Assembly: GCA_035574235.1 (NCBI GenBank)
Contig: DATLZA010000156.1
Location: 17,998-81,997 of the forward strand
DNA length: 64,000 nt
Origin: Planctomycetota bacterium
GTDB lineage: Bacteria; Planctomycetota; MHYJ01; JACPRB01
Reading direction: 5' to 3'
Positions 8,597 to 64,000 of the stretch are shown in pieces. The notes under the pieces are model-generated. The model ran no database searches. It had not been told where the DNA came from and saw only the letters and a list, made by a program, of their open reading frames with translations. The number at the start of each line of letters is the position of its first letter. Position 1 is the stretch's first letter. The position numbers and the translations under genes are program-made.

Positions 8597-9574
8597 ATGA
8601 ACGCGCTCTGCGCCCTGCTGGCGATCGCCGCGGCCACCGTTCAGGACCGTCCTTCGGACGACTCCACCCTGCGCAAGCTCGAACGGGACATCGCCGCCGT
8701 CGTCGAAAAGGTCCGTCCTTCCGTGGTTCGCGTGACCGCGATGCTCGGGAGCGATCCTCTCTTCGGGCCGCGCCGGCGGATCCTCTCGGGCGTCGTTTAC
8801 GGCGGCGAGGGACACGTGGTGACGGAAGCCTCGGGCGTCGAAGGCGCGGAAGACCTGTCCGTGGAAGCCGCCGGGGACGTGTACAAGGCGCGGCACGTGG
8901 CCTCCGACGTGCGGACCGGCGTGGCCGTTCTCCACGTTCCGGCGCGGGGGCTCGTCCCGGCCGCTTTCGTCTCCGAACCGTGCAAGCCGGGGGCCATTGC
9001 CGTGACGGTGGGATATCCCTTCGGCGCGCCGGGGGCTTCGTTCGGGAGCATTGCCGGCTCGGGCCGGTCGATCCTCGTGGGAGGCCGCCGGTACGACGAC
9101 ATGATCCAAGTGACCGCGCCCGTGCATCCGGGCGACTGCGGCGGATTCGTGGCCGATGCGGCGGGCCGGTTCGTGGGGCTGGTGCACTCGCTTTACGGGG
9201 CTGAGCCCGGTCGGTCCGCGGCGCCGGGAGCGGGTTTCGCCGTCCCGGCGGAATGGGTGAAGTTTTCGGCCGACCGCATCATCCGGCACGGACGGATGGT
9301 GCGCGGATGGCTGGGCGTGACGGTCCGCGCCGCCGGGCGGCCCGAAGGGGGCGTGCGGATTTTGCGCGTGGATCCGGACGGACCCGCCGCTCGCGCGGGG
9401 CTGGCGCCGGAGGACGTTCTGGTGGCCTTCGACGGCCGTCCCGTCCGGAATCCGGCGGAGCTGCAGTGGAAGGTGGCCCGTTTCGAAGAGCCGACTCCGG
9501 TGCGGGTGACCCTCCTGCGGGGGGAGGAGCGGCTCGAACTCGAGGTGCGCGTGGAGATCGATCCTCTCAAGTGA
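8597..9574 (+). CDS. HtrA/DegP-like protein with intact PDZ but degenerate catalytic triad (predicted non-catalytic or altered-nucleophile paralog)
   Basis: Trypsin-like fold (PSVVRVTAM…GYPFGAPGASFGSIAGSGR…) plus a C-terminal PDZ (WLGVTVRAAG…GVRILRVDPDGPAARAGLAPEDVLVAFDGRPV). Aligned to the canonical paralog at 10436: TNNHVV becomes TEASGV (His lost), DLALLK becomes GVAVLH (Asp lost), and GNSGG becomes GDCGG (Ser to Cys). The ATG at 8597 is in frame with the longer 8000-start track ORF. Confidence 0.8.
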   Translation: MNALCALLAIAAATVQDRPSDDSTLRKLERDIAAVVEKVRPSVVRVTAMLGSDPLFGPRRRILSGVVYGGEGHVVTEASGVEGAEDLSVEAAGDVYKARHVASDVRTGVAVLHVPARGLVPAAFVSEPCKPGAIAVTVGYPFGAPGASFGSIAGSGRSILVGGRRYDDMIQVTAPVHPGDCGGFVADAAGRFVGLVHSLYGAEPGRSAAPGAGFAVPAEWVKFSADRIIRHGRMVRGWLGVTVRAAGRPEGGVRILRVDPDGPAARAGLAPEDVLVAFDGRPVRNPAELQWKVARFEEPTPVRVTLLRGEERLELEVRVEIDPLK

Positions 9575-29143: not shown

Positions 29144-32100
29144 ATGGCCGACGCCGCCAAGCCCGACGCCCCCGTGAAGCACGAGCCCCCCAAGGAGCTC
29201 GAAGGGAAGGCCCAGGTCCAGAAGTTCATGGGCCGTCCCAAGAGAACTCCCGCGGACCAGGCGGAGTACTTCTACGACGTCAAGGTCACCCATATCGTCT
29301 TCTTCGCCGCTTCGCTCGGCCTGCTGGCGTCGTTCCTCCTCATGTTCCGCAAGGACCACGCCCGGCCCTGGAAGGAGTACCAGCGCCAGTTCGCCGAGAT
29401 GGATTTCGAGAAGCTCTGGTTCGAAATGAACGAGCTGCGCAAGGCGGAGGCGGCTCACGACCAGAAGAAGCGCGAGCTCGAACGCCAGATCGAGGCTTTC
29501 CTCAAGATCGTCCGCGGCCGCACGGTTCCGGTCACGCTTTTCGACCCTCAGGCCGCCGAGAAAGTCGCGCGGCTCAAGTCCGCGCCGACCGTCACGGTCC
29601 TCGTCGACGAGGAGAAAAAGAAGCTCCTTCTGGCCGAGCAGGAAAAGATCCGCGGGGAGCACTACGACAAGCAGCAGCTTTTCAACTTCGCCAAGGACGA
29701 GCTGGGGGCCGTCCGGTACCGCTTCGAGGAAGCGAGCCGCCATTACGAGGAGGCCCGGAAGTCCGGCGACGCCCGGCTTCCCGAGCACGAGCGCGCCTAT
29801 CTCGAGGCCAAGAAGGCCTGGGAGGCGGTGAACGCCAAGGTGGATCTCCGCAAACGCGAGTTCGACGAGGTGGACGCGCTGAAGACCTTCTACGAGGACT
29901 TCGTGACGGCCCTGGAGAGCCGCTCGGTGCCGGGACTCTGGGAGGGGCGCCCGTCCCTGGCGGAGCTGCAGAAAGAGATCGCCCTCATCACCCGCGACCT
30001 GGAAGACAAGCGCACGCGCTTCCAGAAGGAACGCCCCAGCTTCGCCAACCGGGTGCGCAACCTTCCCATGCTGGACTTCTTCGCCCCGCAGTACAAGGTC
30101 CAGCAGGTGATCCTCCCCGACCTCAAGGATCAGCTCAACTTCACGCGCGTCGACAAGGTGGACCGCTGCCATACCTGCCACGTGGGCATCGCCAATCCCG
30201 TCTACGAGGTGCGCATCCATCGTTCGGCGGAGAAGGAGGAGGACCGGTACGTTTTCAAGGATCCCTTCCTTCGGGAGTTCGTGGCCCACGCGCGGGGCCT
30301 CAGGGACGGCCGGCCCTTCGAGCCGAAGGACTGCAAGGTCTGCGACCCGGAAGGGCGCAAGAACGCGGAAATGGCCGCCCCGCTTACGCCCCACGGCTCC
30401 TGGGATTCGGACGACGCGATCCGGTTCACGAAAGCCTTCATGGCCCATCCGCGCCTGGACCTGTACGTGGCCGATTCCTCCCGCCACCCGATGCAGCGGT
30501 TCGGCTGCACGATCTGCCACGAGGGAGACGGACGGGACACGGACTTCACGCGCGTCGTTCACACGCCCGACGACCGCCAGGAAGCGGCCGCCTGGCGCCG
30601 CCGGCACGGCACTCCCTTCGGCGAGGAACGCTACAACTGGAACTACCGGGAGCTGTGGGATCTCCCGATGATCCCCTCGAAGTTCGTCCAGGCGTCGTGC
30701 CGGCGCTGCCACGTGGATGCCGTGGAGCTGGACGGGGCGGAGAAGTACGTGGCCGGCATGAAGCTCTTCGAGCGCGCCGGCTGCTACGGCTGCCACCGCA
30801 CGGACACCTACCAGGTTCTGGAAAAGGATCAGGCCAATCCTTCGCTGGATCCCAACCGCAAGGCGCGCCGTCCCGGGCCGCCGCTCACGCGGATCGACAC
30901 CAAGGTCACGCCGGAATGGGCCTGGAAGTGGCTCATGGGCCCCCGCGACTTCCGCCCCACCACCCGCATGCCGCATTTCTTCCTGCAGTCCAACGCGCGA
31001 AACTTCGTCACCGGGCTTGACGAGAAGGGGGAAGTCCGCAAGAAGCCCTACAAGCCCGAGGAGATCGACGGCACCCTCGCCTGGTCGATCCTGCGGTACA
31101 TCTGGAGCCTGTCGGAGACCCAAGAGGACGCCCCGCCTCCGGCTTCTCTCAAGGGCGATCCCAAACGCGGGGAGCTCATCGTCCGACAGGTGGGATGCAC
31201 CGCCTGCCACAAGGTCGAGGATACCCCCGAATCCGAATTCCGCGCCTGGACGGATCGGAGCCGGTACCTGGAGGAATTCGCTCCGGCGCTGGCGGGCGTG
31301 GGGAGCAAGATCAAGTCCAAAACCTGGCTGTACCACTGGGTGCGCAACCCCAAGAAGCACTTCCCGGATTCCGCGATGCCGAGCCTGCGCCTCACGGAAC
31401 AGGAAGCGCTGGACGTCGTGGAATACCTGATGACGCTCCGCAAGCCGGAATGGGAGCGCCGCCCCGGCCCGCCGCCGGTGCGGGAAGAGCTCGTCAATGA
31501 CCTCGTCTTCGAGCAGCTGCGCAAGGCGACCTCCGACGCCAACGCCCGCCGGTTGCTCCAGGGCGGGGATCCGGAGCTCAAGGACCTGGACGGCCGGGTG
31601 CGGTGGCTCGGGCGCAAGATGACGGCCAACTTCGGCTGCTACTCCTGCCACCGGCTGCCCCGCAAGGACGGAGAGCCGGACTGGCTCAACACCGAGGGCA
31701 TCGGCGTGGAGCTGACGGGAGCGCAACCGTTCGGTTCCAAGCATTACGACCGGCTGGACTTCGGCTTCACGATGGACGACGGGGTCAACCATCACGGCGT
31801 CACGTTCAAGCACGGAGTGACCGGTCAGGAGATCACCGCCCGCGTCCACGAAACCCGCCAGGACTGGCTGGAGTGGAAGCTGCGCAATCCCCGGATCTTC
31901 GACGGCGGCAAAATGGAGTCGAAGCCCTGGGACGAGCTTCTGCGGATGCCCCACTTCGGCCTGACCGACTATGAGATCGAGCTGCTTCAGACGTTCGTCC
32001 TGTCCTTCACGGACCATCGGGTCGCCGGGCTGGTGGCGTCGGCGGAGAAGCGGTTTTCCCCCGACGAGAAGGCGCTCAACCGCGGAGAGCGCCTTGTGCG

Positions 32101-33202
32101 GGACAACAACTGCCGGGCCTGCCACCGGATGTCCCTCGATCGCTTCGAGACGGAGTGGACGCGATTGGACCCGGCTCAGAAGAAGGTCGTGACCACCTGG
32201 GAGTGGGTCGAAGGGCGCAACCTCGGGCGCGCGGGGGCGGACAACGCCGAGGCGATCCTCCGGCGCTGGGGGCTGATCTCCGGCGACGTCAAAAAGGAGC
32301 AGCTCGCCCGGTACGAGGTTTACTCGATCGACTGGGCGTCCGATCATCGCACGCTCCGGATCCCGGGCGTCGTGGCCGGGGGCAACAAGTTCGTGGCCTT
32401 CGACGGGGACGATTGGTGGTACCTCGACACGGACGAAAAAGGCCAGCCCCTCAAGCGGCCGATTCGCCGGAGGATCCCCCAGGACGGAGGGGACATCCTG
32501 CCCAAGATCGCCGCCTTCAAGAAGAAGCTCGCCGACGAATCGGACGAGGACATCGGCGACATGAGCGACCCCGGGCAGCTCGAGGCGCGCTATCCTCCGA
32601 TGCTGCGGACCCAGGGCGTCAAGACCCAGGCCGACTGGCTCTACCGCTTCCTCAAGAATCCCTGGCCGATCCGGCCGAACATTTTCCCGGTGGCGCCGGG
32701 CGCCAGGACGATGCCGGATCTCAACATTCGGATGCCCACGTTCGGACTGTCCGACGAGGAGGCGGCGTCGCTTGTGCGGTGGTTCGCCGTCCGGGACCAT
32801 CTGCCGGGGGTGGATGTCTACCCCTACACGAATTTCCCGGAGCGGGACCCGGCCCTTCTGGCCGCCCGCCGGGAGATCCACGAGAAGGTTCTTCGCGGCG
32901 TGATTCTGGACCGCGAAAAGGGGTGCGCAAGCTGCCACTGGGTGGCCGGCCAGGCGCCGCCCGGCGACCCCTTCAAGCACGCGCCGGATCTGGCCCATGT
33001 GGAGGAACGGCTCCGCCCCCGGTGGCTCTACCCGTGGGTGGCCGTCCCGGCTTCGATCTATCCGCGCACGACGATGACGTCCTTCTGGTCGAACCCGCAG
33101 GATCCGAAACAGGCCGACGAGATCCGGGCGGCCGTGGAGGCGCTGTTGAACTTCCGGAAACTGACCTCCGCGAAGGGCGCGGAGACGCAGGAGAAGAAAT
33201 AA
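29144..33202 (+). CDS. membrane-anchored poly-cytochrome c (8 CxxCH; tandem class I cytochrome c domains) with long N-terminal coiled coil
   Basis: Eight heme motifs: CHTCH, CTICH, CRRCH, CYGCH, CTACH, CYSCH, CRACH, CASCH. At least four are followed by class-I Met-ligand signatures (TRMPHFFL, SAMPSLRLTEQEALDVVEYL, LRMPHFGLTDYEIELLQTF, IRMPTFGLSDEEAASLVRWF). N-terminal TM IVFFAASLGLLASFLLMF, then ~250 aa of heptad-like charged sequence. Confidence 0.85.
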   Translation: MADAAKPDAPVKHEPPKELEGKAQVQKFMGRPKRTPADQAEYFYDVKVTHIVFFAASLGLLASFLLMFRKDHARPWKEYQRQFAEMDFEKLWFEMNELRKAEAAHDQKKRELERQIEAFLKIVRGRTVPVTLFDPQAAEKVARLKSAPTVTVLVDEEKKKLLLAEQEKIRGEHYDKQQLFNFAKDELGAVRYRFEEASRHYEEARKSGDARLPEHERAYLEAKKAWEAVNAKVDLRKREFDEVDALKTFYEDFVTALESRSVPGLWEGRPSLAELQKEIALITRDLEDKRTRFQKERPSFANRVRNLPMLDFFAPQYKVQQVILPDLKDQLNFTRVDKVDRCHTCHVGIANPVYEVRIHRSAEKEEDRYVFKDPFLREFVAHARGLRDGRPFEPKDCKVCDPEGRKNAEMAAPLTPHGSWDSDDAIRFTKAFMAHPRLDLYVADSSRHPMQRFGCTICHEGDGRDTDFTRVVHTPDDRQEAAAWRRRHGTPFGEERYNWNYRELWDLPMIPSKFVQASCRRCHVDAVELDGAEKYVAGMKLFERAGCYGCHRTDTYQVLEKDQANPSLDPNRKARRPGPPLTRIDTKVTPEWAWKWLMGPRDFRPTTRMPHFFLQSNARNFVTGLDEKGEVRKKPYKPEEIDGTLAWSILRYIWSLSETQEDAPPPASLKGDPKRGELIVRQVGCTACHKVEDTPESEFRAWTDRSRYLEEFAPALAGVGSKIKSKTWLYHWVRNPKKHFPDSAMPSLRLTEQEALDVVEYLMTLRKPEWERRPGPPPVREELVNDLVFEQLRKATSDANARRLLQGGDPELKDLDGRVRWLGRKMTANFGCYSCHRLPRKDGEPDWLNTEGIGVELTGAQPFGSKHYDRLDFGFTMDDGVNHHGVTFKHGVTGQEITARVHETRQDWLEWKLRNPRIFDGGKMESKPWDELLRMPHFGLTDYEIELLQTFVLSFTDHRVAGLVASAEKRFSPDEKALNRGERLVRDNNCRACHRMSLDRFETEWTRLDPAQKKVVTTWEWVEGRNLGRAGADNAEAILRRWGLISGDVKKEQLARYEVYSIDWASDHRTLRIPGVVAGGNKFVAFDGDDWWYLDTDEKGQPLKRPIRRRIPQDGGDILPKIAAFKKKLADESDEDIGDMSDPGQLEARYPPMLRTQGVKTQADWLYRFLKNPWPIRPNIFPVAPGARTMPDLNIRMPTFGLSDEEAASLVRWFAVRDHLPGVDVYPYTNFPERDPALLAARREIHEKVLRGVILDREKGCASCHWVAGQAPPGDPFKHAPDLAHVEERLRPRWLYPWVAVPASIYPRTTMTSFWSNPQDPKQADEIRAAVEALLNFRKLTSAKGAETQEKK

Positions 33203-41381: not shown

Positions 41382-41855
41382 TCAGAAGACCACGACCAGA
41401 CGACCCTTCTCCGAGCGCACCGGGAACGCCTGAAGCTCCCGCGCCGCCGGTGTCGTCGGTCCGGTCCCGTCCGGACGGAAGGTGGCGCTGTGGCAGGGGC
41501 ACCGGATCAGGCCGCTCTTCTCATCCCACTTCACCAGACACGCCAGGTGCGTGCAGGTGGCATTGACCGCGGTAAGTTTGCCTCCCGCGCGGATGATGAG
41601 CAGGGGGATCGCGCCTTTCTCGATCGCCTTGAAGCCGCCTTCGGGGATGTCGTCCGGCCCCACGTCGACGGGCCCCGAGAGGCGCGCTTCGGGGAGGGGA
41701 GCCAGATAGCGGGCCACCGGCACGGCGCTCAGGGCGCAGGTTGCGCACGCGGAGAGAGCGCACGCCGCGCCCAGGAAGTCCCGGCGGCTCGTTCCCGGCT
41801 GCTCGTCGCGTTCCACCGTCCGATCCTTAGTAGCCCCGCGCCGGACGCGCGTCAA
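41382..41855 (-). CDS. Rieske [2Fe-2S] protein
   Basis: Tat signal RRDFLGAACALSA. Rieske boxes CTHLAC and CPCHSA. 157 aa. Confidence 0.9.
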   Translation of the reverse strand: MTRVRRGATKDRTVERDEQPGTSRRDFLGAACALSACATCALSAVPVARYLAPLPEARLSGPVDVGPDDIPEGGFKAIEKGAIPLLIIRAGGKLTAVNATCTHLACLVKWDEKSGLIRCPCHSATFRPDGTGPTTPAARELQAFPVRSEKGRLVVVF

Positions 41856-42697
41856 GGAATTCCACGCCCGGAGCTCTTTCTTTCCTTACCCAGAAACGCC
41901 CGCGGCAGGTACGCCAGGAGGTCCGTCGCCATCAGGGAAACTTCGCCGAGATCCCGCGCCCCCAGATCCCCCGCCCGGCCGTGCACCTCGACGCCCAGGC
42001 AGGCGGCCTCGAAGGGCTCGATCTTCTGGCCCAGAAGCGCTCCGAGAACCCCCGCCAGGACGTCTCCCGATCCTCCCGTCGCCATTCCGGGGTTCCCGGT
42101 CCGGTTCCGGAAGAGCCGCCGGCCGTCCGTCACGAGCGTTCCGTGCCCTTTGAGGACGGCGATCCCGCCAAGGCGGCGCGCCAGCTCACGCGCGGTTCCC
42201 TCCCGGTCCGCCTGGACGTCCCCGGCGGTGCGCCCCAGGAGGCGGGCCGCCTCGCCCGGATGCGGCGTGAGGATCCGCGGCGCGCGGGCGCGGGCCAGAA
42301 GTTCCGCGCGGCCCTCGAAGGCGTTCAGGCCGTCGGCGTCGAGAACGAAGGGGATCTCGAGCCGCGCGACGAGTTCCCGGACCAGGCGGACGGCGGCGGG
42401 ATCGCGCGAGAGCCCCGGGCCGATCACCGCCGCCGTGCTCCGAGCCGCCTCGGCCAGGACCCGGCGGGCCGCCGCCCGCGGAGGAAAGGGCCGCACAATG
42501 CCGCAGGTGTGCTTGATCGAAAGAATGTCGGCCACCCGCTCGGGGCAGGCCAGGACGACGAGTCCCGCGCCCGCCCGGTAGGCCGCTTCCGCCGCAAGAT
42601 AGGCCGCCCCCGTCATGCCCGGAGAGCCGGCCACGACGAGCACCGTGCCGTAATCTCCCTTGTGCGTCTCGGGACGGCGCGGAGGCAGGCCGGGCAT
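41852..42697 (-). CDS. ADP-dependent NAD(P)H-hydrate dehydratase (YjeF C-terminal / carbohydrate kinase fold)
   Basis: HKGDYGTVLVVAGSPGMTGAAYLAAEAAYRAGAGLV…TPHPGEAARL…GSGDVLAGVLGALL. Its 3' end overlaps the Rieske start by 4 nt. Confidence 0.85.
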   Translation of the reverse strand: MPGLPPRRPETHKGDYGTVLVVAGSPGMTGAAYLAAEAAYRAGAGLVVLACPERVADILSIKHTCGIVRPFPPRAAARRVLAEAARSTAAVIGPGLSRDPAAVRLVRELVARLEIPFVLDADGLNAFEGRAELLARARAPRILTPHPGEAARLLGRTAGDVQADREGTARELARRLGGIAVLKGHGTLVTDGRRLFRNRTGNPGMATGGSGDVLAGVLGALLGQKIEPFEAACLGVEVHGRAGDLGARDLGEVSLMATDLLAYLPRAFLGKERKSSGRGIP

Positions 42698-42817
42698 GGG
42701 CGGGATTGTAACAGCGCCCCGCGCGGCGGGGAAGGAAACGCGCGGCGATTCGATGCTCCGAGCGGCCCGCCCGGCGTATTATTTAGCGGAAGCGGGATCC
42801 ACCGGGGAGGCCGTCGC

Positions 42818-43795
42818 ATGAGATTCGCCCTCTGGGGGCTGGCCCTTCTGGCGTCCGGGACGTTCCAGGAGGACATGGTCAAGAAAGTGGCGCCCGACGC
42901 CGAGCGCGTGCGCAAGGTCGCCCGCAAGCCGGCGCCCGGGGCGCGCGAGAAGATCGAAAAGGCGCTCGGCGAGCGGCTCGCCGAAGCCGACCTTTCCGCC
43001 CCGCTTTTCGAGTGCTATGCGACCGTTCCGTCCGTTTCGAGCATGGAAAAGACCCGCGTCGTGGTCGGCGTGTTCTCCGGCCGGGGCCCCAAGGGGCCGT
43101 TCCGCGTGGCGGTGGCGGTGGCCCCGGGCGAGGATACGATCCACGCGGTGCGCGTGCTCGAGAACGCCGACGAAAAGGCGCTCGAGTCGAACGCGTTCCT
43201 GGCCCAGTTCCAGGGGTTCGAGTACACCCCGAACATCTACAACCCGCCTCAGAGCCTTGCGGCGGCGCTTCAGAAAGCCAAGGGGGCCGATGAAGCGGCG
43301 CGCGAACTGGACGCGCTCGTGCGGATCAGCCTGCAGATGCGCGCGGTGGGGCCGGCGTGGGATCGGCTCCTGGAGAAAATCGACAAGAAGGACGCCGCCG
43401 CGGAGGAGGATCTTGCGTTCCTCGAACGGGCGTTCGACGAGGCGCTCAAGCTCGTTCCGGCGGCGCGCTTTCTCAAGCCCACCCAGCAGGAGCGCTTCCG
43501 CCAGTACGCCTCGGGGGCGCGCGCGGATGTCCAGGAGTTGCGGCGATTCCTGAAGGAAGGGAACTTCGAGGAGGCCTACCGTAAGTCGGGGGAGGTCGAT
43601 TCTCAGCGTTGCGCCAAGTGCCATGGCGCGTACCGGCGCAGTTTCCGCGAGGCGCGATCGGATCGCGGTCTCGGAAACGGCTACCTTTCGACCCGCCTGG
43701 AGGTCGCCGTGCCGGATGCCCGGCATGAAGCCTCGTTTCAGGCGCTGGCTCAGACCGTCCGCAAGGCGGTGCTCCTGATCGAGGAGACGAAGTAG
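42818..43795 (+). CDS. secreted protein with FMN_bind-like domain and C-terminal monoheme CxxCH
   Basis: RBS ggggagg precedes the ATG. Signal peptide MRFALWGLALLASG. Segment GVFSGRGPKGPFRVAVAVAPGEDTIHAVRVLENADEKALESNAFLAQFQGF resembles the FMN_bind domain consensus (…VgiD.dG.I.gV.VL.H.ET.G.G…FL.QF.GK). C-terminal QRCAKCHGAY. Confidence 0.55.
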   Translation: MRFALWGLALLASGTFQEDMVKKVAPDAERVRKVARKPAPGAREKIEKALGERLAEADLSAPLFECYATVPSVSSMEKTRVVVGVFSGRGPKGPFRVAVAVAPGEDTIHAVRVLENADEKALESNAFLAQFQGFEYTPNIYNPPQSLAAALQKAKGADEAARELDALVRISLQMRAVGPAWDRLLEKIDKKDAAAEEDLAFLERAFDEALKLVPAARFLKPTQQERFRQYASGARADVQELRRFLKEGNFEEAYRKSGEVDSQRCAKCHGAYRRSFREARSDRGLGNGYLSTRLEVAVPDARHEASFQALAQTVRKAVLLIEETK

Positions 43796-58476: not shown

Positions 58477-59973
58477 ATGCCGGAAGAGGGCCGCTCGGCG
58501 CGCCTTCGAAAGGCCGCGGGTCTGGCGGCCGGGCTGGCCGCGTTCTTCGCGATCGCCTTCGTTCCGTCCGGGCTCCACCAGGTTCCCGGGGCGGGCGGCG
58601 CGCCCGCCGCGGCCGCGGGAATCGCCGCCCTCATGGCCATCTGGTGGTTTACGGAGGCGCTGCCGATCCACTGGACGGCGCTCGTGCCCCTCGTGGCCTA
58701 TCCCCTCCTCGGCGTCTTCGAGCCCTGGGTCGGCCGCGAGGGCGCCGGGACGCTTCTCCTGCGAAACGCGGGTCGCGCGGCGGCTCCGTATGGGGACGCC
58801 TATATCTTTCTTTTCCTGGGCGGCATGATGATCGGCGCGGCCGCGGAGCAATGGAATCTCCACCGGCGGGTGGCCCTTCACATCCTGCGGGCGATCGGGG
58901 TGGGCCCTCGGCGGCTCCTCCTGGGGGTTCTCGCGGCCACGGCGTTCGTTTCGCTTTGGATCTCCAACACCGCCACCGCCGTCATGATGACGCCCATCGG
59001 AATGGCGCTTCTGAGCCAGCTGGAGGCCGCCGCGGGAGGGCGCCGTCTGGGCCACTTCGGCGCGGCGGTGATGCTCGCCGTGGCCTACGGTTCCAACGTC
59101 GGCGGCATCGGGACGAAGATCGGCACCGGTCCCAACTCCATTCTCTGCGGCTGGGTCCAGCGCCACATGGGACTGGAGCTGAGCTTCCTCTACTACATGC
59201 TTCTGGCCCTGCCCTTCGTCGTTCTCTTTCTCCCGGTCGTCTGGGCGGTGCTCTGGCGGCGCGCGCGCCGGGACCCCCTCGACGGCCTGCGGGCCGACGA
59301 GGTTCTGGACCGCGAACTGGCGGCGCTGGGGCCTATGTCCGTTCCGGAGCGGAAGGTCCTGGCCGTTTTTCTCGCGGCGGCGGTCCTGTGGATTTTCGGG
59401 AACGTGCTTCGTCCCGCCGTCGCCCCGTGGGTCCCGCGGTTCTGGGAGGGTTTCCAGTTCCGGGAGAAACACTACGAGGCCGCCGTGGCGATGGCGGCGG
59501 GCGCGGCGCTTCTGGCGCTGCGGGTTCTTTCGCCGGCGCGGCTGATGCGGATTCCCTGGGACACGCTGGTTCTTCTCGGGGGCGGCTTCGCCCTGGCGGC
59601 GGGGGTGGAGGGAAGCGGACTGTCCGAGTGGCTGGCCCTCCGGCTCAAGGCCGTGGCCGGATTTCCGGCCCCCGTCCAGATCGGCCTGGCCGCGCTCTTC
59701 AGCGTGGGGCTCACCGCCGTCGCTTCCAACACCGCCACGATCAACGTCCTGCTGGGGCTGGTGCCCCGTTCGCTGCCGGTCCTTATGGCCGTGACGCTCG
59801 GATGTTCCTGCGACTTCATGCTCCCCGCGGGGACGCCTCCCAACGCCATCGTTTTCGGCAGCGGCTACATCCGCCTTCCCGTCATGATCCGCACGGGATT
59901 CGCGCTCGATCTGGCGGCGGTGCTGGCGATCGTTCTCTACGGCTCGTTCTACCTGCGCTGGATCGCGTCTTGA
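58477..59973 (+). CDS. DASS/SLC13-family sodium:anion (di/tricarboxylate or sulfate) symporter
   Basis: Approximately 12-14 TM helices. Duplicated SNT-type re-entrant hairpin motifs (WISNTATAVMM; VASNTATINVLL). Confidence 0.85.
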   Translation: MPEEGRSARLRKAAGLAAGLAAFFAIAFVPSGLHQVPGAGGAPAAAAGIAALMAIWWFTEALPIHWTALVPLVAYPLLGVFEPWVGREGAGTLLLRNAGRAAAPYGDAYIFLFLGGMMIGAAAEQWNLHRRVALHILRAIGVGPRRLLLGVLAATAFVSLWISNTATAVMMTPIGMALLSQLEAAAGGRRLGHFGAAVMLAVAYGSNVGGIGTKIGTGPNSILCGWVQRHMGLELSFLYYMLLALPFVVLFLPVVWAVLWRRARRDPLDGLRADEVLDRELAALGPMSVPERKVLAVFLAAAVLWIFGNVLRPAVAPWVPRFWEGFQFREKHYEAAVAMAAGAALLALRVLSPARLMRIPWDTLVLLGGGFALAAGVEGSGLSEWLALRLKAVAGFPAPVQIGLAALFSVGLTAVASNTATINVLLGLVPRSLPVLMAVTLGCSCDFMLPAGTPPNAIVFGSGYIRLPVMIRTGFALDLAAVLAIVLYGSFYLRWIAS

Positions 59974-60010
59974 CAACCCCCGGCGGGGGGCCTACAGTAA
60001 CCGCACTTCG

Positions 60011-60475
60011 ATGCGCTGCCCCTTCTGCAAGAAGGACAACGACCGGGTTATCGACTCGCGTTCGGCCAACGCGGGCGCGACGGTCCGCCGGCGCCGCGAG
60101 TGCCTGGCCTGTTCCAAGCGCTTCACCACGTACGAGAAGGTCGAGGAGATCACCCTCTACGTCATCAAGAAGGACGGCCGCCGCGACGTCTTCGACCGGG
60201 AGAAGATCAAGCGCGGCCTCCTGACGGCCTGCAAGAAGCGCCCCGTGTCCCTTCAGACCATCGAGGACATCGTCAACCGCATCGAAATCGAGCTGTACGA
60301 GAAATACGACCGCGAGGTGAAATCCACCAAGATCGGAGACCTCGTGATGCGCGAGCTCAAGGCGATCGACCACGTCGCGTACGTCCGCTTCGCCTCGGTC
60401 TATCGCGAGTTCAAGGACGTCAGCGAGTTCATGCGCGAGCTGCGGCCCATGCTCAAGACGGGCGCGCGTTCCTAA
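60011..60475 (+). CDS. nrdR: transcriptional repressor NrdR
   Basis: Zinc ribbon MRCPFCK…CLACSKRFTTYE, followed by an ATP-cone domain. Confidence 0.92.
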   Translation: MRCPFCKKDNDRVIDSRSANAGATVRRRRECLACSKRFTTYEKVEEITLYVIKKDGRRDVFDREKIKRGLLTACKKRPVSLQTIEDIVNRIEIELYEKYDREVKSTKIGDLVMRELKAIDHVAYVRFASVYREFKDVSEFMRELRPMLKTGARS

Positions 60476-60502
60476 GGGACGGGACGCCGGGGAGAGGAGG
60501 GC

Positions 60503-62419
60503 ATGCCGATCCGGAAGGTCGAAACGGTCCGAAAGCGGGACGGCCGCATCGTCCCCTACGACGAACAGAAGATCGCCGAGGCGATCGTGCGCGCCGCCCG
60601 CGCCGCCGGACACGACAACGCCACCATCGGCCGCGACCTCGCCAGCGTCGTGACGATGTATTTGGAGCGCTATCGGGAGCGCGACGTTCCCACGAGCGAG
60701 GAAATCCAGCGTCTCGTCGAGAAGATCCTCTTCGATACGGGCCACGCCGCCGTCGCCCGGGCCTACATCGTCTACCGGGAGCGCAAGGGCCAGCCGGCCG
60801 GCGCGGCCGCGCCTCCCGCGGAGGACCTTTTCCCGACGAACCTCGTCCTCGTGGACGGCGCCACCCGGGCCGAAGTCGCTCCCTGGGGGCGCGAGCGCAT
60901 CATCGCCGCGCTCACCAAGGAAGCCGGCCTCGAGGAGGAGGCCGCTTCGGAGATCGCCGGATCCGTCGAGCAGAAAATCTTCCAGCTCGGCCAGCGGCGC
61001 GTCTCCACGACCCTCATCCGGGAGCTCGTCAACCACGAGCTCCTGGCCCGCGGGTACGGCTCGAAACTCCGCCGGCAGATCGTCGTGGGCCTTCCCAAGT
61101 ACGACCTCGGCCGCCTCATGGGCGACGAGGAAGCCCGCATCGATCCCGACGGGATGTGCCGCCTCATCGGCCAGACCACGCTCAAGCAGTACGCCCTCCA
61201 GGAGATCTTCACGCGCGACGTGGCCGACGCCCACCTCGAGGGGCGCCTGCACGTCCACGGCCTGGAGGAACCGCTCAAGCTTCACGCCCTGGAGCCTTCG
61301 GTCCTCGAGATCCGCCGCACGGGCGTCCGGGTGCGCGGCTCGGCGGCCCTTTCGGAGCCGGCCCGCGACGCGCGGACCCTGACCGTCCAGCTCGCCCGCG
61401 TGGCCGCCGACGCGCGCCGGTTCGTCAGCGGGCCGACCACGTTCCTCGGCCTGAGCGAAGCGTACGATCAGCTCCTGTGGGGGGCGGACGAGGACCGCGT
61501 GCGCCTGGAGGTCGAGCACGTGGCGGCGGCGCTCGAGGACGCGCCGTTCGTCGTGGAGCCCCGGCACCGCACGGCGGCGCCCCTGGCGCGGATGGGCCGG
61601 GCGGTCGTATGGACGGCCGGCGTGGGCGAGGAGCTGCGGGAGTTCTGCCGGCTGGCGGCGGACCGCGGCATGGTGTTCGCCTTCGCGCGGCCGCAGCCCG
61701 CCGGACCGGCCTCCGCCGCGCCGGGGGGCGCCCTGGAGGGCCGGGCCGTCGCCCAGGCGGTGACGCTCAACCTGCCGCAGGCCTTCTTCCGGAGCGAGGG
61801 CGGCGCCGATTTCTACACCGAGCTCGAGGCGGCCATCGAGCTGGCGGTCAAGGCGCACCTTCAGAAGCGCCAGCTGCTGCGCAAGTTCGCCGACCGCGCC
61901 ACGGGCGCCTTCGGCGCCGCCTTCGGGTGGCCGGCCGACGGCGGCGCCGCGCCGCCCTTCGACCGCTTCGAATACGCCGTGAGCCTGGCCGGACTCAACG
62001 AGGCGGTGAAGCTGCTTTCCGGCCAGGAAATCCTCGAGGGGGACGCCGCGGTGCGCCTGGCCCTGCGGCTGGTCTCGTACGTTTATTTCCGCCTCCGCGA
62101 GGAATCCGCCCGGCAGGGGATCCGGCTCGTGCTCGAGGACGTCCCGCCGGGGGAGGCGATCGACCGCTTCGTGCGGATCGACGCGCAGATGTATCCCCGG
62201 GCGCGCGGGCTCCTGGCCGACCGCGTCCGCTACACGCCGGGCTTCCGCGTCCGGGGGGCGCCGTCCTTCGAGACCCTCGCGGTCGAGGCGCGGTTCCACA
62301 CGCTCGTTCCCACCGCGCGCGCCACGGCGGAGCGCGCGCGCCTGTCGCCGGGGGATCTCTTCGCGATCCTGGAGCGGCTGTACGCCGAGACCCCCGCCGC
62401 CCGCGTGGCCGTCGAATGA
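60503..62419 (+). CDS. ATP-cone domain protein with large RNR-sized C-terminal body lacking catalytic cysteines
   Basis: RBS ggagaggaggg precedes the ATG. The N-terminal ATP-cone is VRKRDGRIVPYDEQKIAEAIVRAA. The remaining ~540 aa contain only 2 Cys and have no glycyl-radical (RVxGY) or CxxC signature. Confidence 0.7.
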   Translation: MPIRKVETVRKRDGRIVPYDEQKIAEAIVRAARAAGHDNATIGRDLASVVTMYLERYRERDVPTSEEIQRLVEKILFDTGHAAVARAYIVYRERKGQPAGAAAPPAEDLFPTNLVLVDGATRAEVAPWGRERIIAALTKEAGLEEEAASEIAGSVEQKIFQLGQRRVSTTLIRELVNHELLARGYGSKLRRQIVVGLPKYDLGRLMGDEEARIDPDGMCRLIGQTTLKQYALQEIFTRDVADAHLEGRLHVHGLEEPLKLHALEPSVLEIRRTGVRVRGSAALSEPARDARTLTVQLARVAADARRFVSGPTTFLGLSEAYDQLLWGADEDRVRLEVEHVAAALEDAPFVVEPRHRTAAPLARMGRAVVWTAGVGEELREFCRLAADRGMVFAFARPQPAGPASAAPGGALEGRAVAQAVTLNLPQAFFRSEGGADFYTELEAAIELAVKAHLQKRQLLRKFADRATGAFGAAFGWPADGGAAPPFDRFEYAVSLAGLNEAVKLLSGQEILEGDAAVRLALRLVSYVYFRLREESARQGIRLVLEDVPPGEAIDRFVRIDAQMYPRARGLLADRVRYTPGFRVRGAPSFETLAVEARFHTLVPTARATAERARLSPGDLFAILERLYAETPAARVAVE

Positions 62420-63297
62420 TCGGGCGGGTCCAGAAGATCGCGGGGAACGACTACGCGGTGAGCGCCGGAGGCGCGCTCTATCACTGCCGGTTCCGCGGGC
62501 GCCTGAAGAAGGACGCGCGCGCCGAGGGAAAGCTCGCCGCGGTGGGGGACGAGGTGGAATTCGTCCCCACGGGCGCCGGCGAAGGCGTCATCGAAAGCGT
62601 CCTTCCGCGCCGCACGAAACTCTCCCGCGCGGACGTCCACCGGCCCCGCCGGGAGCAGGTGATCGTGGCCAACGTGGACACCCTGTTCGTCGTCCAGGCC
62701 GCGCGCGATCCGGACTTCAACGACCTGGTCGCGGACCAGTGCACGGTTATGGCGGCGGCCAACGGGCTTCCGTGCGTTCTCGTCGTCAACAAGTGCGATC
62801 TGGGGGAGCCGGATCTTTCCGCCTACGAGAAGGCCGGCTACCGGACGGTGCGCACGTCGGTCCGCGACGGGCGGGGACTCGACGAGCTGCGGCAGCTTCT
62901 CCGGGGCCGGGTGAGCGTGTTTCTGGGGCCGAGCGGGGTGGGGAAGTCGTCGCTCTTGAACGCGCTGGAGCCGGGCCTGAACCTGAAGGTGGGGGAGGTT
63001 TCCCGCCGCGGCGAGGGGCGTCACACGACGACGTGGGTGGAGCTTCTTCCGGTGGCGGGAGGCTGGGCGGCGGACACGCCGGGCCTCGAGTTCTTCACGC
63101 TGTGGGGGGTGACCCCCGAGAATCTGAAGGATCATTTCCTGGATTTTGCGGAGCTGGCGGCGCGGTGCCGGTTCCGGGACTGTTCGCACACGATCGAGGC
63201 CGGCTGCGCCGTGCGCGAGGGGGCGGTTCCTTCCCGGTACCGCAATTATCTCGCGCTGCGCGAGAAGCTCCGGACCCGACGGGCGGTCTTCGAATAG
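62416..63297 (+). CDS. rsgA: ribosome small-subunit-dependent GTPase A
   Basis: Circularly permuted GTPase motifs VVNKCD…GPSGVGKSSLLNAL…TPG and a C-terminal zinc finger CRFRDCSHTIEAGCAV. The ATG overlaps the previous stop. Confidence 0.9.
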   Translation: MIGRVQKIAGNDYAVSAGGALYHCRFRGRLKKDARAEGKLAAVGDEVEFVPTGAGEGVIESVLPRRTKLSRADVHRPRREQVIVANVDTLFVVQAARDPDFNDLVADQCTVMAAANGLPCVLVVNKCDLGEPDLSAYEKAGYRTVRTSVRDGRGLDELRQLLRGRVSVFLGPSGVGKSSLLNALEPGLNLKVGEVSRRGEGRHTTTWVELLPVAGGWAADTPGLEFFTLWGVTPENLKDHFLDFAELAARCRFRDCSHTIEAGCAVREGAVPSRYRNYLALREKLRTRRAVFE

Positions 63298-63416
63298 GCG
63301 CCGGCGGGGATCAAGAATTCCCCGCGGGCGGCCGATATGGGAAGTGGACGTTTCACCGTGATCCGGAGAGGGCCCGCCGGGCGGTTCCCGGCCCCGAACG
63401 TTTGACCGAGGGCGCC

Positions 63417-64000
63417 ATGCAGCTCAAGAAGCTCGAAATGTGCGGCTTCAAGTCGTTCGCCAACCGAACGGAGATCCTTTTCGACAAGGGCGTCACCGGA
63501 ATCGTCGGACCGAACGGCTGCGGCAAGTCGAACGTCGTCGACGCCATCAAGTGGGTCCTCGGGACGCTCTCCTACAAGTCGGTCCGCGGCGAGGAGATGC
63601 TGGACGTCATCTTCAAGGGCGCCGAGGGGGTGCCCCCGATGGGGTTCGCGGAAGTCTCCCTGACGCTGGACAACTCCGACCACACGCTGCCCCTGGAGTT
63701 CGAGGAAGTGACGATCACGCGGCGGCTCTTCTCGACGGGGGAAGGCGAGTATTTCATCAACAAGGCCCCGTGCCGCCTGAAGGACATCCGGGAGCTGCTC
63801 TACGGGACGGGGATCGGGACGGACAATTATTCGGTCATCGAGCAGGGGAAGATCGACAAGCTGGTGCTTTCGAATCCGCACGAGCGGCGGCTCGTGTTCG
63901 ACGAGGCGGCGGGGATTTCGAAGTACCGGGCGCGCAAGCGCGAGACGGAGCACCGGCTCGAGAAGGTGTCGCAGGATCTCCTGCGGATCCAGGACGTCGT
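63417..64000 (+). CDS. smc: chromosome segregation protein SMC (N-terminal part; 3' end outside window)
   Basis: MQLKKLEMCGFKSFANRTEILFDKGVTGIVGPNGCGKSNVVDAIKWVLG (Walker A), followed by coiled-coil onset. Confidence 0.9.
   Translation, partial: MQLKKLEMCGFKSFANRTEILFDKGVTGIVGPNGCGKSNVVDAIKWVLGTLSYKSVRGEEMLDVIFKGAEGVPPMGFAEVSLTLDNSDHTLPLEFEEVTITRRLFSTGEGEYFINKAPCRLKDIRELLYGTGIGTDNYSVIEQGKIDKLVLSNPHERRLVFDEAAGISKYRARKRETEHRLEKVSQDLLRIQDV

What the first reader, a model, noticed from the sequence alone, without database searches (positions are those of the whole stretch)
60011..62419. nrdR followed by a cysteine-poor ATP-cone protein instead of a ribonucleotide reductase
NrdR normally represses nrd operons and is often adjacent to them. 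Here the downstream gene encodes 638 aa with an N-terminal ATP-cone (VRKRDGRIVPYDEQKIAEAIVRAA). The rest has only two cysteines and no radical-site or CxxC signatures. It therefore cannot be a functional class I/II/III RNR as it stands. Candidate roles are an allosteric dATP/ATP sensor, an RNR pseudo-enzyme or a regulatory partner. The next gene, rsgA, overlaps its stop.
Basis: partly seen in the sequence, partly recalled or inferred. Interest (0 to 1): 0.6.

Follow-up and report, generated by a model that had tools for sequence, protein, structure and literature searches.

The report
Catalytically dead anaerobic RNR homolog beside nrdR
The gene after nrdR encodes a conserved relative of the anaerobic (class III) ribonucleotide reductase that has lost every part needed for radical chemistry but kept its nucleotide-sensing domains, and it belongs to a widespread, unstudied and routinely mislabelled protein family.

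Summary
nrdR lies at 60011-60475. A 638-aa ATP-cone protein with only two cysteines lies at 60503-62419. rsgA overlaps its stop by 4 nt.

The 638-aa protein is not an anonymous ATP-cone protein. It is a class III RNR (NrdD) homolog by Pfam and by Foldseek on an AlphaFold2 model. It has lost the finger-loop thiyl cysteine, the first-strand cysteine, the NxN flap, loop 2, and the C-terminal zinc ribbon plus glycyl-radical domain. No activase gene is nearby.

It is not a decaying pseudogene. dN/dS is about 0.10, the same as rsgA, and only the finger-loop remnant evolves near-neutrally. It keeps two ATP-cones, the HxH triphosphate motif, the strand-6 Asn and the aligned s-site Glu.

About 95 close relatives exist in Planctomycetota MAGs, always arranged nrdR-gene-rsgA behind a conserved promoter-like element. 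None of these loci has the tandem NrdR boxes seen upstream of live nrdR-nrdD operons.

Further radical-domain-less clades occur in Planctomycetota and in Hydrogenedentes/FCB-group bacteria. They group together in an NJ tree (96/100).

Most likely it is a non-catalytic nucleotide sensor, possibly acting with NrdR. That function is inferred, not shown.

The parts
59970..59998 (+). Sigma-70-like promoter element TTGACA-17 nt-TACAGT. It ends 12 nt before the nrdR ATG, which predicts a very short or absent leader.
   Evidence: It is the only promoter-like hit in 59500-64000 (shuffles give a mean of 0.2). A comparable TTGAC(A/T/G)...TAGAGT/TAGACT element is visible by eye at the same place upstream of nrdR in many of the clade A loci listed, although the upstream gene differs.
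60011..60475 (+). nrdR, encoding the Zn-ribbon plus ATP-cone repressor of RNR genes.
   Evidence: TIGR00244 scores 203.6 bits against a cut-off of 124.65. PF22811 and PF03477 also match. dN/dS is 0.036 against the 90%-identical locus L035.
60503..62419 (+). NrdD-like protein without a glycyl-radical domain (638 aa), called pD here. It is a non-catalytic class III RNR homolog.
   Evidence: PF03477 matches in two stretches and PF13597 covers profile positions 264-468 of 562. All NCBIfam NrdD equivalogs score far below cut-off. The AF2 model has pLDDT 82, and Foldseek returns class III RNRs. Overall dN/dS is 0.10.
60524..60790 (+). ATP-cone 1 (residues 8-96). It has the canonical KRDGR roof and the Y91/K95 positions.
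   Evidence: The Pfam best stretch is 8-95. In the alignment to the P. copri NrdD cone, K11/R12/R15/Y91/K95 match K7/R8/R11/Y83/R87 (residue roles from PMC11226230). dN/dS is 0.025-0.04.
60827..60835 (+). L109-F110-P111, a motif invariant in clade A inside the otherwise disordered linker between the cones.
   Evidence: These three columns are invariant in 49 sequences. They are absent from live NrdDs. The region has pLDDT below 50. The motif may be a short interaction motif; this is inference.
60842..61078 (+). Second, degenerate ATP-cone (residues 114-192). It lacks the KR roof motif and is shared with live planctomycete NrdDs.
   Evidence: This is the second Pfam ATP-cone stretch, and it also gives a weak hit to the N-terminal region of the 2-phosphoglycerate kinase models. 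It is 52-56% identical to live NrdD. dN/dS is 0.045-0.13.
61079..61123 (+). Invariant G-x-PKYDL segment followed by the shortened remnant of the NxN flap. The ENSN motif is deleted.
   Evidence: pLDDT is below 50 despite invariance. The role of the flap in live NrdD comes from PMC11226230.
61250..61258 (+). H250-V-H252, the retained HxH of the HxHD triphosphate-binding motif. Ten residues later, A262 stands where the first-strand catalytic Cys should be.
   Evidence: H250 and H252 are invariant in clade A. The roles of the motif and of Cys171 come from PMC11226230.
61688..61738 (+). Remnant of the finger loop (residues 396-412). The thiyl-radical Cys is absent; the sequence is Pro/Ala/Gly-rich and disordered.
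   Evidence: The live sequence 'LSACCRLRT' is replaced. pLDDT is below 50 at residues 399-410. dN/dS is 0.46-1.1, so this stretch evolves near-neutrally.
61769..61771 (+). N423 in 'TLNLPQ', the retained active-site Asn of barrel strand 6.
   Evidence: It is invariant in clade A. It aligns to 'VTLNLPR' of S. thermophilus NrdD. It is equated with Asn435 of P. copri NrdD by motif position; that step is inferred, because no P. copri alignment covered this stretch.
62416..63297 (+). rsgA (ribosome small-subunit biogenesis GTPase, 293 aa). Its start is coupled to the pD stop (ATGA).
   Evidence: PF16745 and PF03193 are recorded for the identical gene in L001. The two genes overlap by 4 or 1 nt in 14 of 17 clade A loci. 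dN/dS is 0.096.
63417..64000 (+). 5' part of smc, which runs off the window. It is the conserved downstream neighbour of both live and dead nrdD loci.
   Evidence: The translated sequence is 98% identical to the SMC N-terminus of L035. SMC follows the locus in L002, L005, L027, L031 and L035.

Best explanation
The 638-aa gene encodes a non-catalytic descendant of the class III ribonucleotide reductase catalytic subunit NrdD.

Shown:
- It keeps the NrdD fold.
- It has lost the glycyl-radical domain, the Zn ribbon, the thiyl-radical cysteine, the second mechanistic cysteine, the NxN flap and loop 2. It therefore cannot reduce ribonucleotides by the known mechanism.
- It is kept by purifying selection.
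- It belongs to a large family lacking the radical domain.
- In Planctomycetota of this clade it is always arranged nrdR-gene-rsgA behind a conserved promoter-like element with no NrdR boxes.

Inferred:
- It still binds nucleotides. ATP or dATP would bind at the intact first ATP-cone. An NTP or dNTP may bind at the retained HxH/Asn/Glu-Ala triphosphate pocket and at the vestigial specificity-site Glu.
- It acts as a nucleotide-pool sensor.
- Its most likely output is modulation of NrdR through ATP-cone-mediated hetero-oligomerisation. That would tune repression of the real RNR genes, which lie elsewhere in the genome.
For: Homology and fold. PF13597 scores 90.8 bits and there are two ATP-cone stretches. 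Foldseek returns class III RNRs at E 3e-21 to 1e-12, with TM 0.5-0.64.

Loss of catalytic parts. Alignments with live 806-aa planctomycete NrdDs and with PDB NrdDs show every loss. No hidden frames exist. No radical-SAM activase lies in the flanks fetched for the dead loci (up to 10 kb each side). A live locus reads nrdR-nrdD-Trx-rSAM-rSAM-SMC.

Selection. dN/dS is 0.10 overall: 0.025 for cone 1, 0.09-0.12 for the core, and 0.46-1.1 for the finger-loop remnant. rsgA gives 0.096 and nrdR 0.036.

Retained nucleotide-site residues. K11, R12, R15, Y91 and K95 in cone 1; H250 and H252; N423; E551-A552; R555; D560; E336. Residue roles come from PMC11226230.

Context. nrdR lies upstream in every dead planctomycete locus examined, including clades B and L031, and in 1 of 4 clade C loci. 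A similar TTGACA...TAGAGT promoter-like element lies upstream of nrdR in many of the clade A loci. The nrdR-pD junction is a 4-nt overlap or a short gap.

Precedent. ATP-cones are known to mediate oligomerisation in NrdR and in RNRs (PMC12051234; PMC11226230).
Against: No direct evidence exists for nucleotide binding or for any contact with NrdR.

nrdR-nrdD adjacency is ancestral; live operons in four phyla have it. Synteny in this clade is conservative in general (mnmE upstream, smc downstream). Linkage could therefore be inherited rather than functional.

Gene organisation couples pD more tightly to rsgA than to nrdR. The pD-rsgA overlap occurs in 14 of 17 loci, the nrdR-pD overlap in 4 of 17.

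Three of four clade C members examined have no nrdR next to them.

Clade B has lost the second His of HxH and the 'NLPQ' context. A conserved c-site pocket is therefore not universal in the family.

The Tyr91 position, which would hold the second nucleotide in cone 1, is not invariant.
Confidence: 0.5

Rival explanations
1. It is a non-radical enzyme. The barrel, stripped of its radical machinery, keeps the triphosphate-binding pocket and now catalyses a different reaction on NTPs or dNTPs, such as hydrolysis or transfer. The ATP-cones would remain as allosteric switches.
For: The barrel core is under selection as strong as the cones (dN/dS 0.09-0.12). HxH, the strand-6 Asn, GLNE, the Glu-Ala loop, R..D and a derived 'YTPG' motif are conserved in clades A, C and D. 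The invariant PKYDL segment lies at the position of the active-site flap.
Against: No new catalytic constellation is evident. Clade B has lost several of these residues yet persists. The loops that position the base and ribose in live NrdD, namely loop 2 and the NxN flap, are gone (PMC11226230).
Confidence: 0.15
2. It acts with RsgA, and perhaps SMC, rather than with NrdR. It would be a nucleotide-state sensor that couples ribosome small-subunit maturation or the cell cycle to ATP/dATP levels.
For: The stop of pD overlaps the start of rsgA by 4 or 1 nt in 14 of 17 clade A loci. rsgA lies downstream in every clade A locus whose contig reaches that far. smc follows in several loci.
Against: Clade B, L031 and clade C lack an adjacent rsgA. 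The overlap could be a by-product of the deletion that removed the 3' end of nrdD together with nrdG. The held library has no paper linking RsgA to the RNR system.
Confidence: 0.12
3. It is a dead partner subunit. It would form heterodimers or hetero-oligomers with the organism's working RNR, as yeast Rnr4 does with Rnr2, and supply allosteric sites or stability.
For: NrdD is an obligate dimer in which only one monomer is active at a time (PMC11226230). The N-terminal 260 residues are the best-conserved part relative to live NrdD, at 46-55% identity.
Against: No live nrdD or nrdG lies in any dead locus. No RNR is among the ten largest ORFs of the window. Whether these genomes hold a live class III enzyme could not be tested. 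Heterodimers with a class I or II enzyme are structurally unlikely.
Confidence: 0.08
4. It is a decaying relic, a pseudogene in slow motion, with no function.
For: All catalytic parts are lost, and the finger-loop remnant evolves neutrally.
Against: dN/dS is 0.10, equal to rsgA. The reading frame is intact in about 95 close homologs down to 39% identity, and in further clades in other phyla. There are 57 invariant columns in 49 sequences.
Confidence: 0.03
5. It is still a ribonucleotide reductase. It would use an unknown radical route or a separately encoded glycyl-radical module.
For: There is precedent for stand-alone glycyl-radical modules that rescue pyruvate formate-lyase (GrcA/YfiD). This rests on general knowledge and was not tested here.
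Against: Both mechanistic cysteines are missing, not only the radical domain. No GRD-like sequence exists anywhere in the window. No radical-SAM activase is nearby.
Confidence: 0.02

Closest known systems
Class III (anaerobic) ribonucleotide reductase catalytic subunit NrdD. Examples are the 806-808-aa planctomycete enzymes P0098 and P0106, P. copri NrdD (PDB 8P23) and S. thermophilus NrdD (PDB 9D3X).
   Same: Same fold and common ancestry. N-terminal ATP-cone, plus a second degenerate cone as in planctomycete NrdDs. PKYDL, the KQYALQE helix, HxH, the strand-6 Asn and the GLNE and R..D motifs. nrdR lies upstream and smc downstream, as in the live planctomycete operon.
   Different: It lacks the glycyl-radical domain, the Zn ribbon, the finger-loop thiyl Cys, the first-strand Cys, the NxN flap and loop 2. 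No NrdG activase or thioredoxin-like gene is present. No NrdR boxes lie upstream. It scores 107 bits against the 548-bit cut-off of the best NCBIfam equivalog.
NrdR (ATP-cone transcriptional repressor of RNR genes)
   Same: It shares the ATP-cone nucleotide-sensing module and is encoded in the same operon. The proposed logic is the same: the ATP/dATP state is read out through oligomerisation.
   Different: It has no Zn-ribbon DNA-binding domain. It is four times larger and carries an RNR barrel. No DNA binding is expected.
Catalytically inactive RNR large-subunit homologs of betaherpesviruses (M45, UL45) and the inactive yeast small subunit Rnr4. This comparison rests on general knowledge and was not tested here.
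   Same: They are RNR-family proteins that lost catalytic residues and were kept for a non-catalytic role.
   Different: They derive from class I, not class III. They are eukaryotic or viral. They have no ATP-cone-centred role and are unrelated in function (cell-death inhibition, cofactor assembly).
'NrdD-like paralog (no NrdG)' listed for Chloracidobacterium species (PMC12816986, table)
   Same: It is an NrdD-like gene without an activase in an aerobe or microaerobe, mentioned without functional study. It may belong to the same radical-domain-less family.
   Different: It comes from a different phylum (Acidobacteriota).

Membership tests
Functional class III RNR (NrdD) | Ten-stranded alpha/beta barrel homologous to NrdD | tested here: met
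   PF13597 scores 90.8 bits. Foldseek top hits are 9D3X, 8P2C, 1HK8 and 4COJ, with E 3e-21 to 1e-13.
Functional class III RNR (NrdD) | Thiyl-radical cysteine at the tip of the finger loop (Cys416 in P. copri, Cys290 in T4) | tested here: not met
   The live sequence 'LSACCRLRT' is replaced by 'PQPAGPASAA'. No Cys occurs in residues 396-412. This region is disordered and evolves neutrally.
Functional class III RNR (NrdD) | Second mechanistic cysteine on the first barrel strand (Cys171 in P. copri, Cys79 in T4) | tested here: not met
   A262 in the window, and Trp in most of clade A, aligns with that Cys.
Functional class III RNR (NrdD) | C-terminal glycyl-radical motif (RVxGY) and the preceding four-Cys Zn ribbon | tested here: not met
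   The protein ends at the last barrel element, and rsgA starts 4 nt before its stop. No such sequence exists in any frame of the window.
Functional class III RNR (NrdD) | Cognate radical-SAM activase NrdG | tested here: not met
   It is absent from the flanks fetched for the dead loci (up to 10 kb each side). In the live locus L005 it lies 0.3 kb downstream. Genome-wide absence could not be tested.
Functional class III RNR (NrdD) | Reaches the curated equivalog score (NCBIfam NF006126, TIGR02487) | tested here: not met
   106.8 bits against 548, and 87.2 against 326.
NrdR (upstream gene) | Zn ribbon (CxxC...CxxC) plus ATP-cone, reaching the TIGR00244 cut-off | tested here: met
   203.6 bits against 124.65. 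PF22811 matches at 1.2e-20 and PF03477 at 1.1e-24.
NrdR regulon (is this operon NrdR-controlled?) | Pair of 16-bp NrdR boxes with a 15-16 bp spacer near the promoter | tested here: not met
   The box core CWANATNTWG gives 0 hits in 64 kb. No box pairs occur in any of 24 dead loci, against 5 of 7 live loci. The test uses a consensus core, so a divergent box could be missed.
Radical-domain-less NrdD-like family (defined here; uncharacterised) | NrdD core truncated at the end of the barrel, all radical elements lost, ATP-cone(s) kept, derived 'YTPG' in place of 'YTNS' | tested here: met
   See the feature table. The profile search finds many proteins that end at the profile end. NJ bootstrap for monophyly is 96/100.
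ATP-cone allosteric domain able to bind nucleotide | KR(D)G roof, conserved helix residues, and a C-terminal aromatic plus basic pair | tested here: inconclusive
   In cone 1, K11, R12, G14, R15, K23, Y91 and K95 match the residues that contact nucleotide in P. copri NrdD. Binding itself cannot be tested in silico. Cone 2 lacks the KR motif.

The most novel reading that the evidence does not exclude
NrdD-like proteins without a radical domain would be an ancient, multi-phylum class of nucleotide-pool sensors built from a disarmed RNR. In Planctomycetota they would work as a subunit or antagonist of NrdR. Repression of the real RNR genes would then depend on a hetero-complex that reads ATP/dATP through its cones and NTP/dNTP through the vestigial active and specificity sites. 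This would be the first bacterial RNR pseudoenzyme and a new layer of dNTP-supply control.
Probability: 0.25. Interest if true: 0.8.

Novelty: new variant of a known kind. Interest (0 to 1): 0.66.

Why it matters
RNRs and NrdR are the central control point of DNA-precursor supply and are studied intensively. No paper in the held library describes a non-catalytic class III homolog.

This one is conserved, under purifying selection, and found in several phyla. Public annotation systematically calls it 'anaerobic ribonucleoside-triphosphate reductase'. Metabolic reconstructions that count it will therefore wrongly infer anaerobic dNTP synthesis.

If it does sense nucleotides and talks to NrdR, it would show how an allosteric enzyme can be converted into a pure regulator. 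It would also offer a natural 'allostery-only' NrdD for studying ATP-cone signalling without radical chemistry.

Tried and rejected
Hidden catalytic parts. tblastn with a live NrdD, its C-terminal 130 aa and its middle part found nothing in any frame of the window beyond the in-frame core.

NrdR boxes. The full 16-bp consensus with up to 3 mismatches gave 0 hits. The 10-bp core also gave 0. Relaxed pair scans at spacings of 21-22, 30-33 and 41-43 bp found nothing in the window or in any dead locus.

Real RNR genes in the window. The ten largest ORFs include no RNR. They include GyrA, GroEL, an aldehyde dehydrogenase, a cytochrome c protein and a two-component system. The smaller ORFs were not scanned. 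A genome-wide search for the real RNR was not possible with these tools.

Literature. These searches found nothing on a radical-domain-less NrdD: 'NrdD + pseudoenzyme', 'NrdD-like', 'NrdR + RsgA', 'NrdD homolog/paralog/truncated', and RNR pseudoenzyme terms. The one exception is a table entry for Chloracidobacterium. The RNRdb paper and the 2022 RNR phylogeny paper were also searched for pseudogene and inactive-homolog terms, without result.

AFDB Foldseek. The library was unavailable.

Taxon names for clade C. The cluster look-up gave none. Names came from the homolog search instead.

Terminator-like hit at 63453-63471. It lies inside smc and is taken as chance.
Full report
**Observation.** The window holds nrdR at 60011-60475 (154 aa). 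It scores 203.6 bits against TIGR00244 (cut-off 124.65). After a 27-nt gap comes a 638-aa ORF at 60503-62419 that begins with a canonical ATP-cone. That ORF has exactly two cysteines, C219 and C382. rsgA starts at 62416, so its ATG overlaps the stop (ATGA). smc starts at 63417.

**What the 638-aa protein is.**
- Pfam finds two ATP-cone stretches (best 8-95) and a partial match to PF13597, the anaerobic RNR family. Residues 382-603 match profile positions 264-468 of 562, at 90.8 bits.
- All NCBIfam NrdD equivalogs score far below their cut-offs, for example 106.8 against 548.
- An AlphaFold2 model built on 49 homologs has pLDDT 82 and pTM 0.69. It is disordered only at residues 96-113, 120-124, 193-207 and 399-410.
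- Foldseek against the PDB returns only class III RNRs at the top. These are from S. thermophilus, P. copri, phage T4 and T. maritima, with E 3e-21 to 1e-12 and TM 0.5-0.64. Class I enzymes follow far behind.
- The protein is therefore an NrdD homolog, not a different enzyme family.

**What it has lost.** I aligned it with live 806-808-aa planctomycete NrdDs (about 35% identity overall) and with PDB NrdDs. Residue roles come from the P. copri NrdD paper PMC11226230. Five losses stand out:
1. The protein stops exactly where the Zn ribbon (CxxC...CxxC) and the glycyl-radical motif (RIVGYFSR) begin.
2. The finger-loop 'LSACCRLRT', which carries the thiyl-radical Cys, is replaced by a Cys-free Pro/Ala/Gly stretch.
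3. The first-strand Cys ('YCSSHS') is Ala in the window and Trp in most relatives.
4. The 'ENSN' NxN flap that closes over the substrate is deleted.
5. Loop 2 and the next strand ('SGSQSAFSRGGQTLFLDFN'), which carry the specificity signal to the active site, are deleted.

tblastn with a live NrdD finds no trace of the missing parts in any frame of the 64 kb. No radical-SAM activase lies in the flanks of the dead loci. A live planctomycete locus reads nrdR-nrdD-thioredoxin-like-rSAM-rSAM-smc.

**What it has kept.**
- Cone 1 has K11, R12, G14 and R15, plus Y91 and K95. These align with the nucleotide-contacting K7, R8, R11, Y83 and R87 of P. copri NrdD.
- A second, degenerate cone is shared with live planctomycete NrdDs.
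- The invariant G-x-PKYDL segment is kept.
- H250-x-H252 of the HxHD triphosphate motif is kept.
- N423 in 'TLNLPQ' is kept. It aligns to 'VTLNLPR' of S. thermophilus NrdD, and I equate it with Asn435 of P. copri by motif position.
- E551-A552 is kept. It aligns with the 'PAE' phosphate-binding loop of P. copri (Glu581 after a 4-residue numbering offset that I worked out from the alignments).
- GLNE and R555..D560 are kept.
- E336 is kept. By its position in live planctomycete NrdDs and by motif spacing, I take it to be the Mg-binding Glu of the specificity site (Glu290 in P. copri). This is inferred; no direct P. copri alignment covers it.
- The N-terminal 262 residues are 46-55% identical to live NrdD. 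Residues 263-395 and 521-638 are only 20-25% identical.

**Not a pseudogene.** I computed Nei-Gojobori dN/dS against the 90%- and 93%-identical loci L035 and L034.

| Region or gene | dN/dS |
|---|---|
| Whole protein | 0.10-0.11 |
| Cone 1 | 0.025-0.04 |
| Barrel halves | 0.09-0.12 |
| Finger-loop remnant | 0.46-0.90 (up to 1.1 against more distant loci) |
| rsgA | 0.096-0.098 |
| nrdR | 0.036 |

Fifty-seven columns are invariant in 49 sequences that go down to 39% identity.

**Family and distribution.**
- About 95 full-length relatives (590-660 aa, 39-93% identity) exist. All that carry a taxon name are Planctomycetota MAGs, and most are annotated 'anaerobic ribonucleoside-triphosphate reductase'. 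I call this clade A.
- A scan of GTDB species genomes found about 17 such species.
- A second clade, B, has about 50 clusters of 650-710 aa. NCBI calls them 'ATP cone domain-containing protein'. It is more degenerate: the second His of HxH and the NLPQ context are lost, but a loop-2-like 'RGGR' is kept.
- A single divergent member, L031, is a third planctomycete form.
- A profile search of 1.84 billion representatives gave 663 hits at E <= 1e-30. Many are ~730-775-aa proteins that end at the profile end, so they also lack the radical domain.
- This clade C numbers more than 100 clusters. Named members come from Candidatus Hydrogenedentes and 'FCB group' bacteria. It occurs on contigs of 4.08 and 7.9 Mb.
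- All these clades share the same truncation point and the same losses. Clades A, C and D also share a derived 'YTPG' where live enzymes have 'YTNS'.
- An NJ tree groups all radical-domain-less sequences with 96/100 bootstrap support. Long-branch attraction cannot be excluded with this method.

**Genomic context.**
- In every clade A locus where the contig allows, the order is nrdR-gene-rsgA. This holds for the window and some twenty other loci. Identities to the window proteins are 52-94% for NrdR, 39-80% for the dead NrdD and 50-70% for RsgA.
- The dead-NrdD stop overlaps the rsgA start by 4 or 1 nt in 14 of 17 loci. nrdR overlaps the dead NrdD by 4 nt in 4 of 17 loci and otherwise lies 9-115 nt away.
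- A TTGACA-17-TACAGT element ends 12 nt before the nrdR ATG. A similar TTGACA...TAGAGT/TAGACT element sits there in many of the clade A loci, whatever gene lies upstream. This suggests a dedicated promoter and a near-leaderless nrdR mRNA.
- Clade B and L031 read nrdR-gene-smc.
- One of four clade C loci has nrdR directly upstream. The others stand alone or follow an Mrp/ParA-type gene.
- nrdR also precedes live nrdD in Planctomycetota, Clostridia, Elusimicrobia, Ignavibacteria and others. The adjacency is therefore ancestral. With smc downstream in both live and dead loci, the planctomycete gene occupies the position of a former live nrdD.

**NrdR boxes.**
- Live loci carry tandem boxes 31-32 bp apart upstream of nrdR (L005/L006, L026, L028, L032, L033). 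This matches the published 16-bp boxes with 15-16 bp spacers (PMC12051234).
- None of the 24 dead planctomycete loci has such a pair, including the whole 64-kb window.
- The dead operon has thus left the canonical NrdR regulon, and NrdR's targets must lie elsewhere in the genome.
- No RNR is among the ten largest ORFs of the window. The window does encode a large cytochrome c protein with cbb3/FixO-like domains, which would fit a respiratory lifestyle. That reading is inference.

**Mechanism.**
- Shown: a non-catalytic NrdD derivative, under selection, co-organised with nrdR and rsgA.
- Inferred: it binds ATP or dATP at cone 1, and probably a nucleotide triphosphate at the retained pocket, and so acts as a nucleotide sensor.
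- I favour an output through NrdR for three reasons. ATP-cones drive nucleotide-dependent oligomerisation in both NrdR and RNRs. nrdR adjacency holds across three planctomycete dead clades and recurs in clade C. The most conserved part of the protein is the cone region.
- This step is weakly supported. The adjacency is inherited, the coupling to rsgA is tighter, and most clade C genes examined lack nrdR.
- The rivals are a new non-radical enzyme, an RsgA/SMC-linked sensor, a dead partner of a live RNR, a functionless relic, and a cryptic RNR. The last two are contradicted by selection and by the missing cysteines.

**Novelty.**
- Full-text searches found no description of a class III homolog without a radical domain. 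The only trace is a table line, 'NrdD-like paralog (no NrdG)', for Chloracidobacterium.
- Inactive RNR homologs are known for class I in herpesviruses and yeast (general knowledge). The kind is therefore known, but this bacterial, class III, ATP-cone-retaining branch is not.
- I rate it a new variant of a known kind, of clear interest to RNR and NrdR specialists. It also corrects a systematic misannotation.

Noticed in passing
window 59970-60010; the same position in L007-L015, L019-L024 and L035: A TTGACA-17-TA(G/C)AGT promoter-like element ends about 12 nt before the nrdR ATG. It is conserved although the upstream gene varies (a DASS transporter, mnmE or others). This implies a near-leaderless nrdR mRNA.
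   Followed up: partly
L005 7267-7330: The live planctomycete nrdR-nrdD operon has three NrdR-box-like sites: GCAAGATATTCG, CCACTAGATGTTGG and CCAAGATGCTGG. They are spaced 21 and 31 bp apart and lie about 250 nt upstream of nrdR. They form a GC-richer box variant than the textbook consensus.
   Followed up: partly
public records of P0005-P0060, P0390, P0392, P0437 and others: JGI and NCBI label radical-domain-less proteins 'anaerobic ribonucleoside-triphosphate reductase' or 'ribonucleoside-triphosphate reductase (formate)'. This systematic misannotation would distort metabolic reconstructions.
   Followed up: partly
window 60827-60835 (residues 109-111): An invariant Leu-Phe-Pro lies in the disordered linker between the two ATP-cones. 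It is specific to clade A and absent from live NrdDs. It may be a short linear interaction motif.
   Followed up: no
window 29144-33202 (+): A 1352-aa protein carries several cytochrome c domains and a FixO-like (cbb3 oxidase mono-haem subunit) stretch. It hints at respiratory metabolism in the host.
   Followed up: no
window 41981-43795 (+): A 604-aa ORF with coding-like GC3 (0.83) has no Pfam match at E <= 1e-5. It overlaps a minus-strand ORF at 41852-42697, so the gene call is uncertain.
   Followed up: no
L039 6656-10223: In a 4.08-Mb contig, the clade C radical-domain-less gene starts 8 nt after an Mrp/ParA-type Fe-S assembly ATPase gene. A PUA-domain SAM methyltransferase gene follows. 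This context differs from the planctomycete one.
   Followed up: no
L040 7160-7210: A clade C locus has nrdR directly upstream. Two box-like sites, CCGATATGTTG and CCCAATATATGG, lie 33 bp apart and overlap a TTGAC promoter element. nrdR may therefore be autoregulated there, unlike in clade A.
   Followed up: partly
L011 ~500-630 and L010 ~9360-9440 (upstream of nrdR): L011 has inverted repeats of GGTTCA/TGAACC units flanking long C- and G-runs. L010 has a 25-bp perfect hairpin, probably the terminator of the upstream gene.
   Followed up: no
window 58477-59973 compared with L002, L016-L018 and L023: In the window and its closest relatives, a DASS-family transporter gene sits between mnmE and nrdR. 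In several other clade A loci mnmE directly precedes the nrdR promoter.
   Followed up: no
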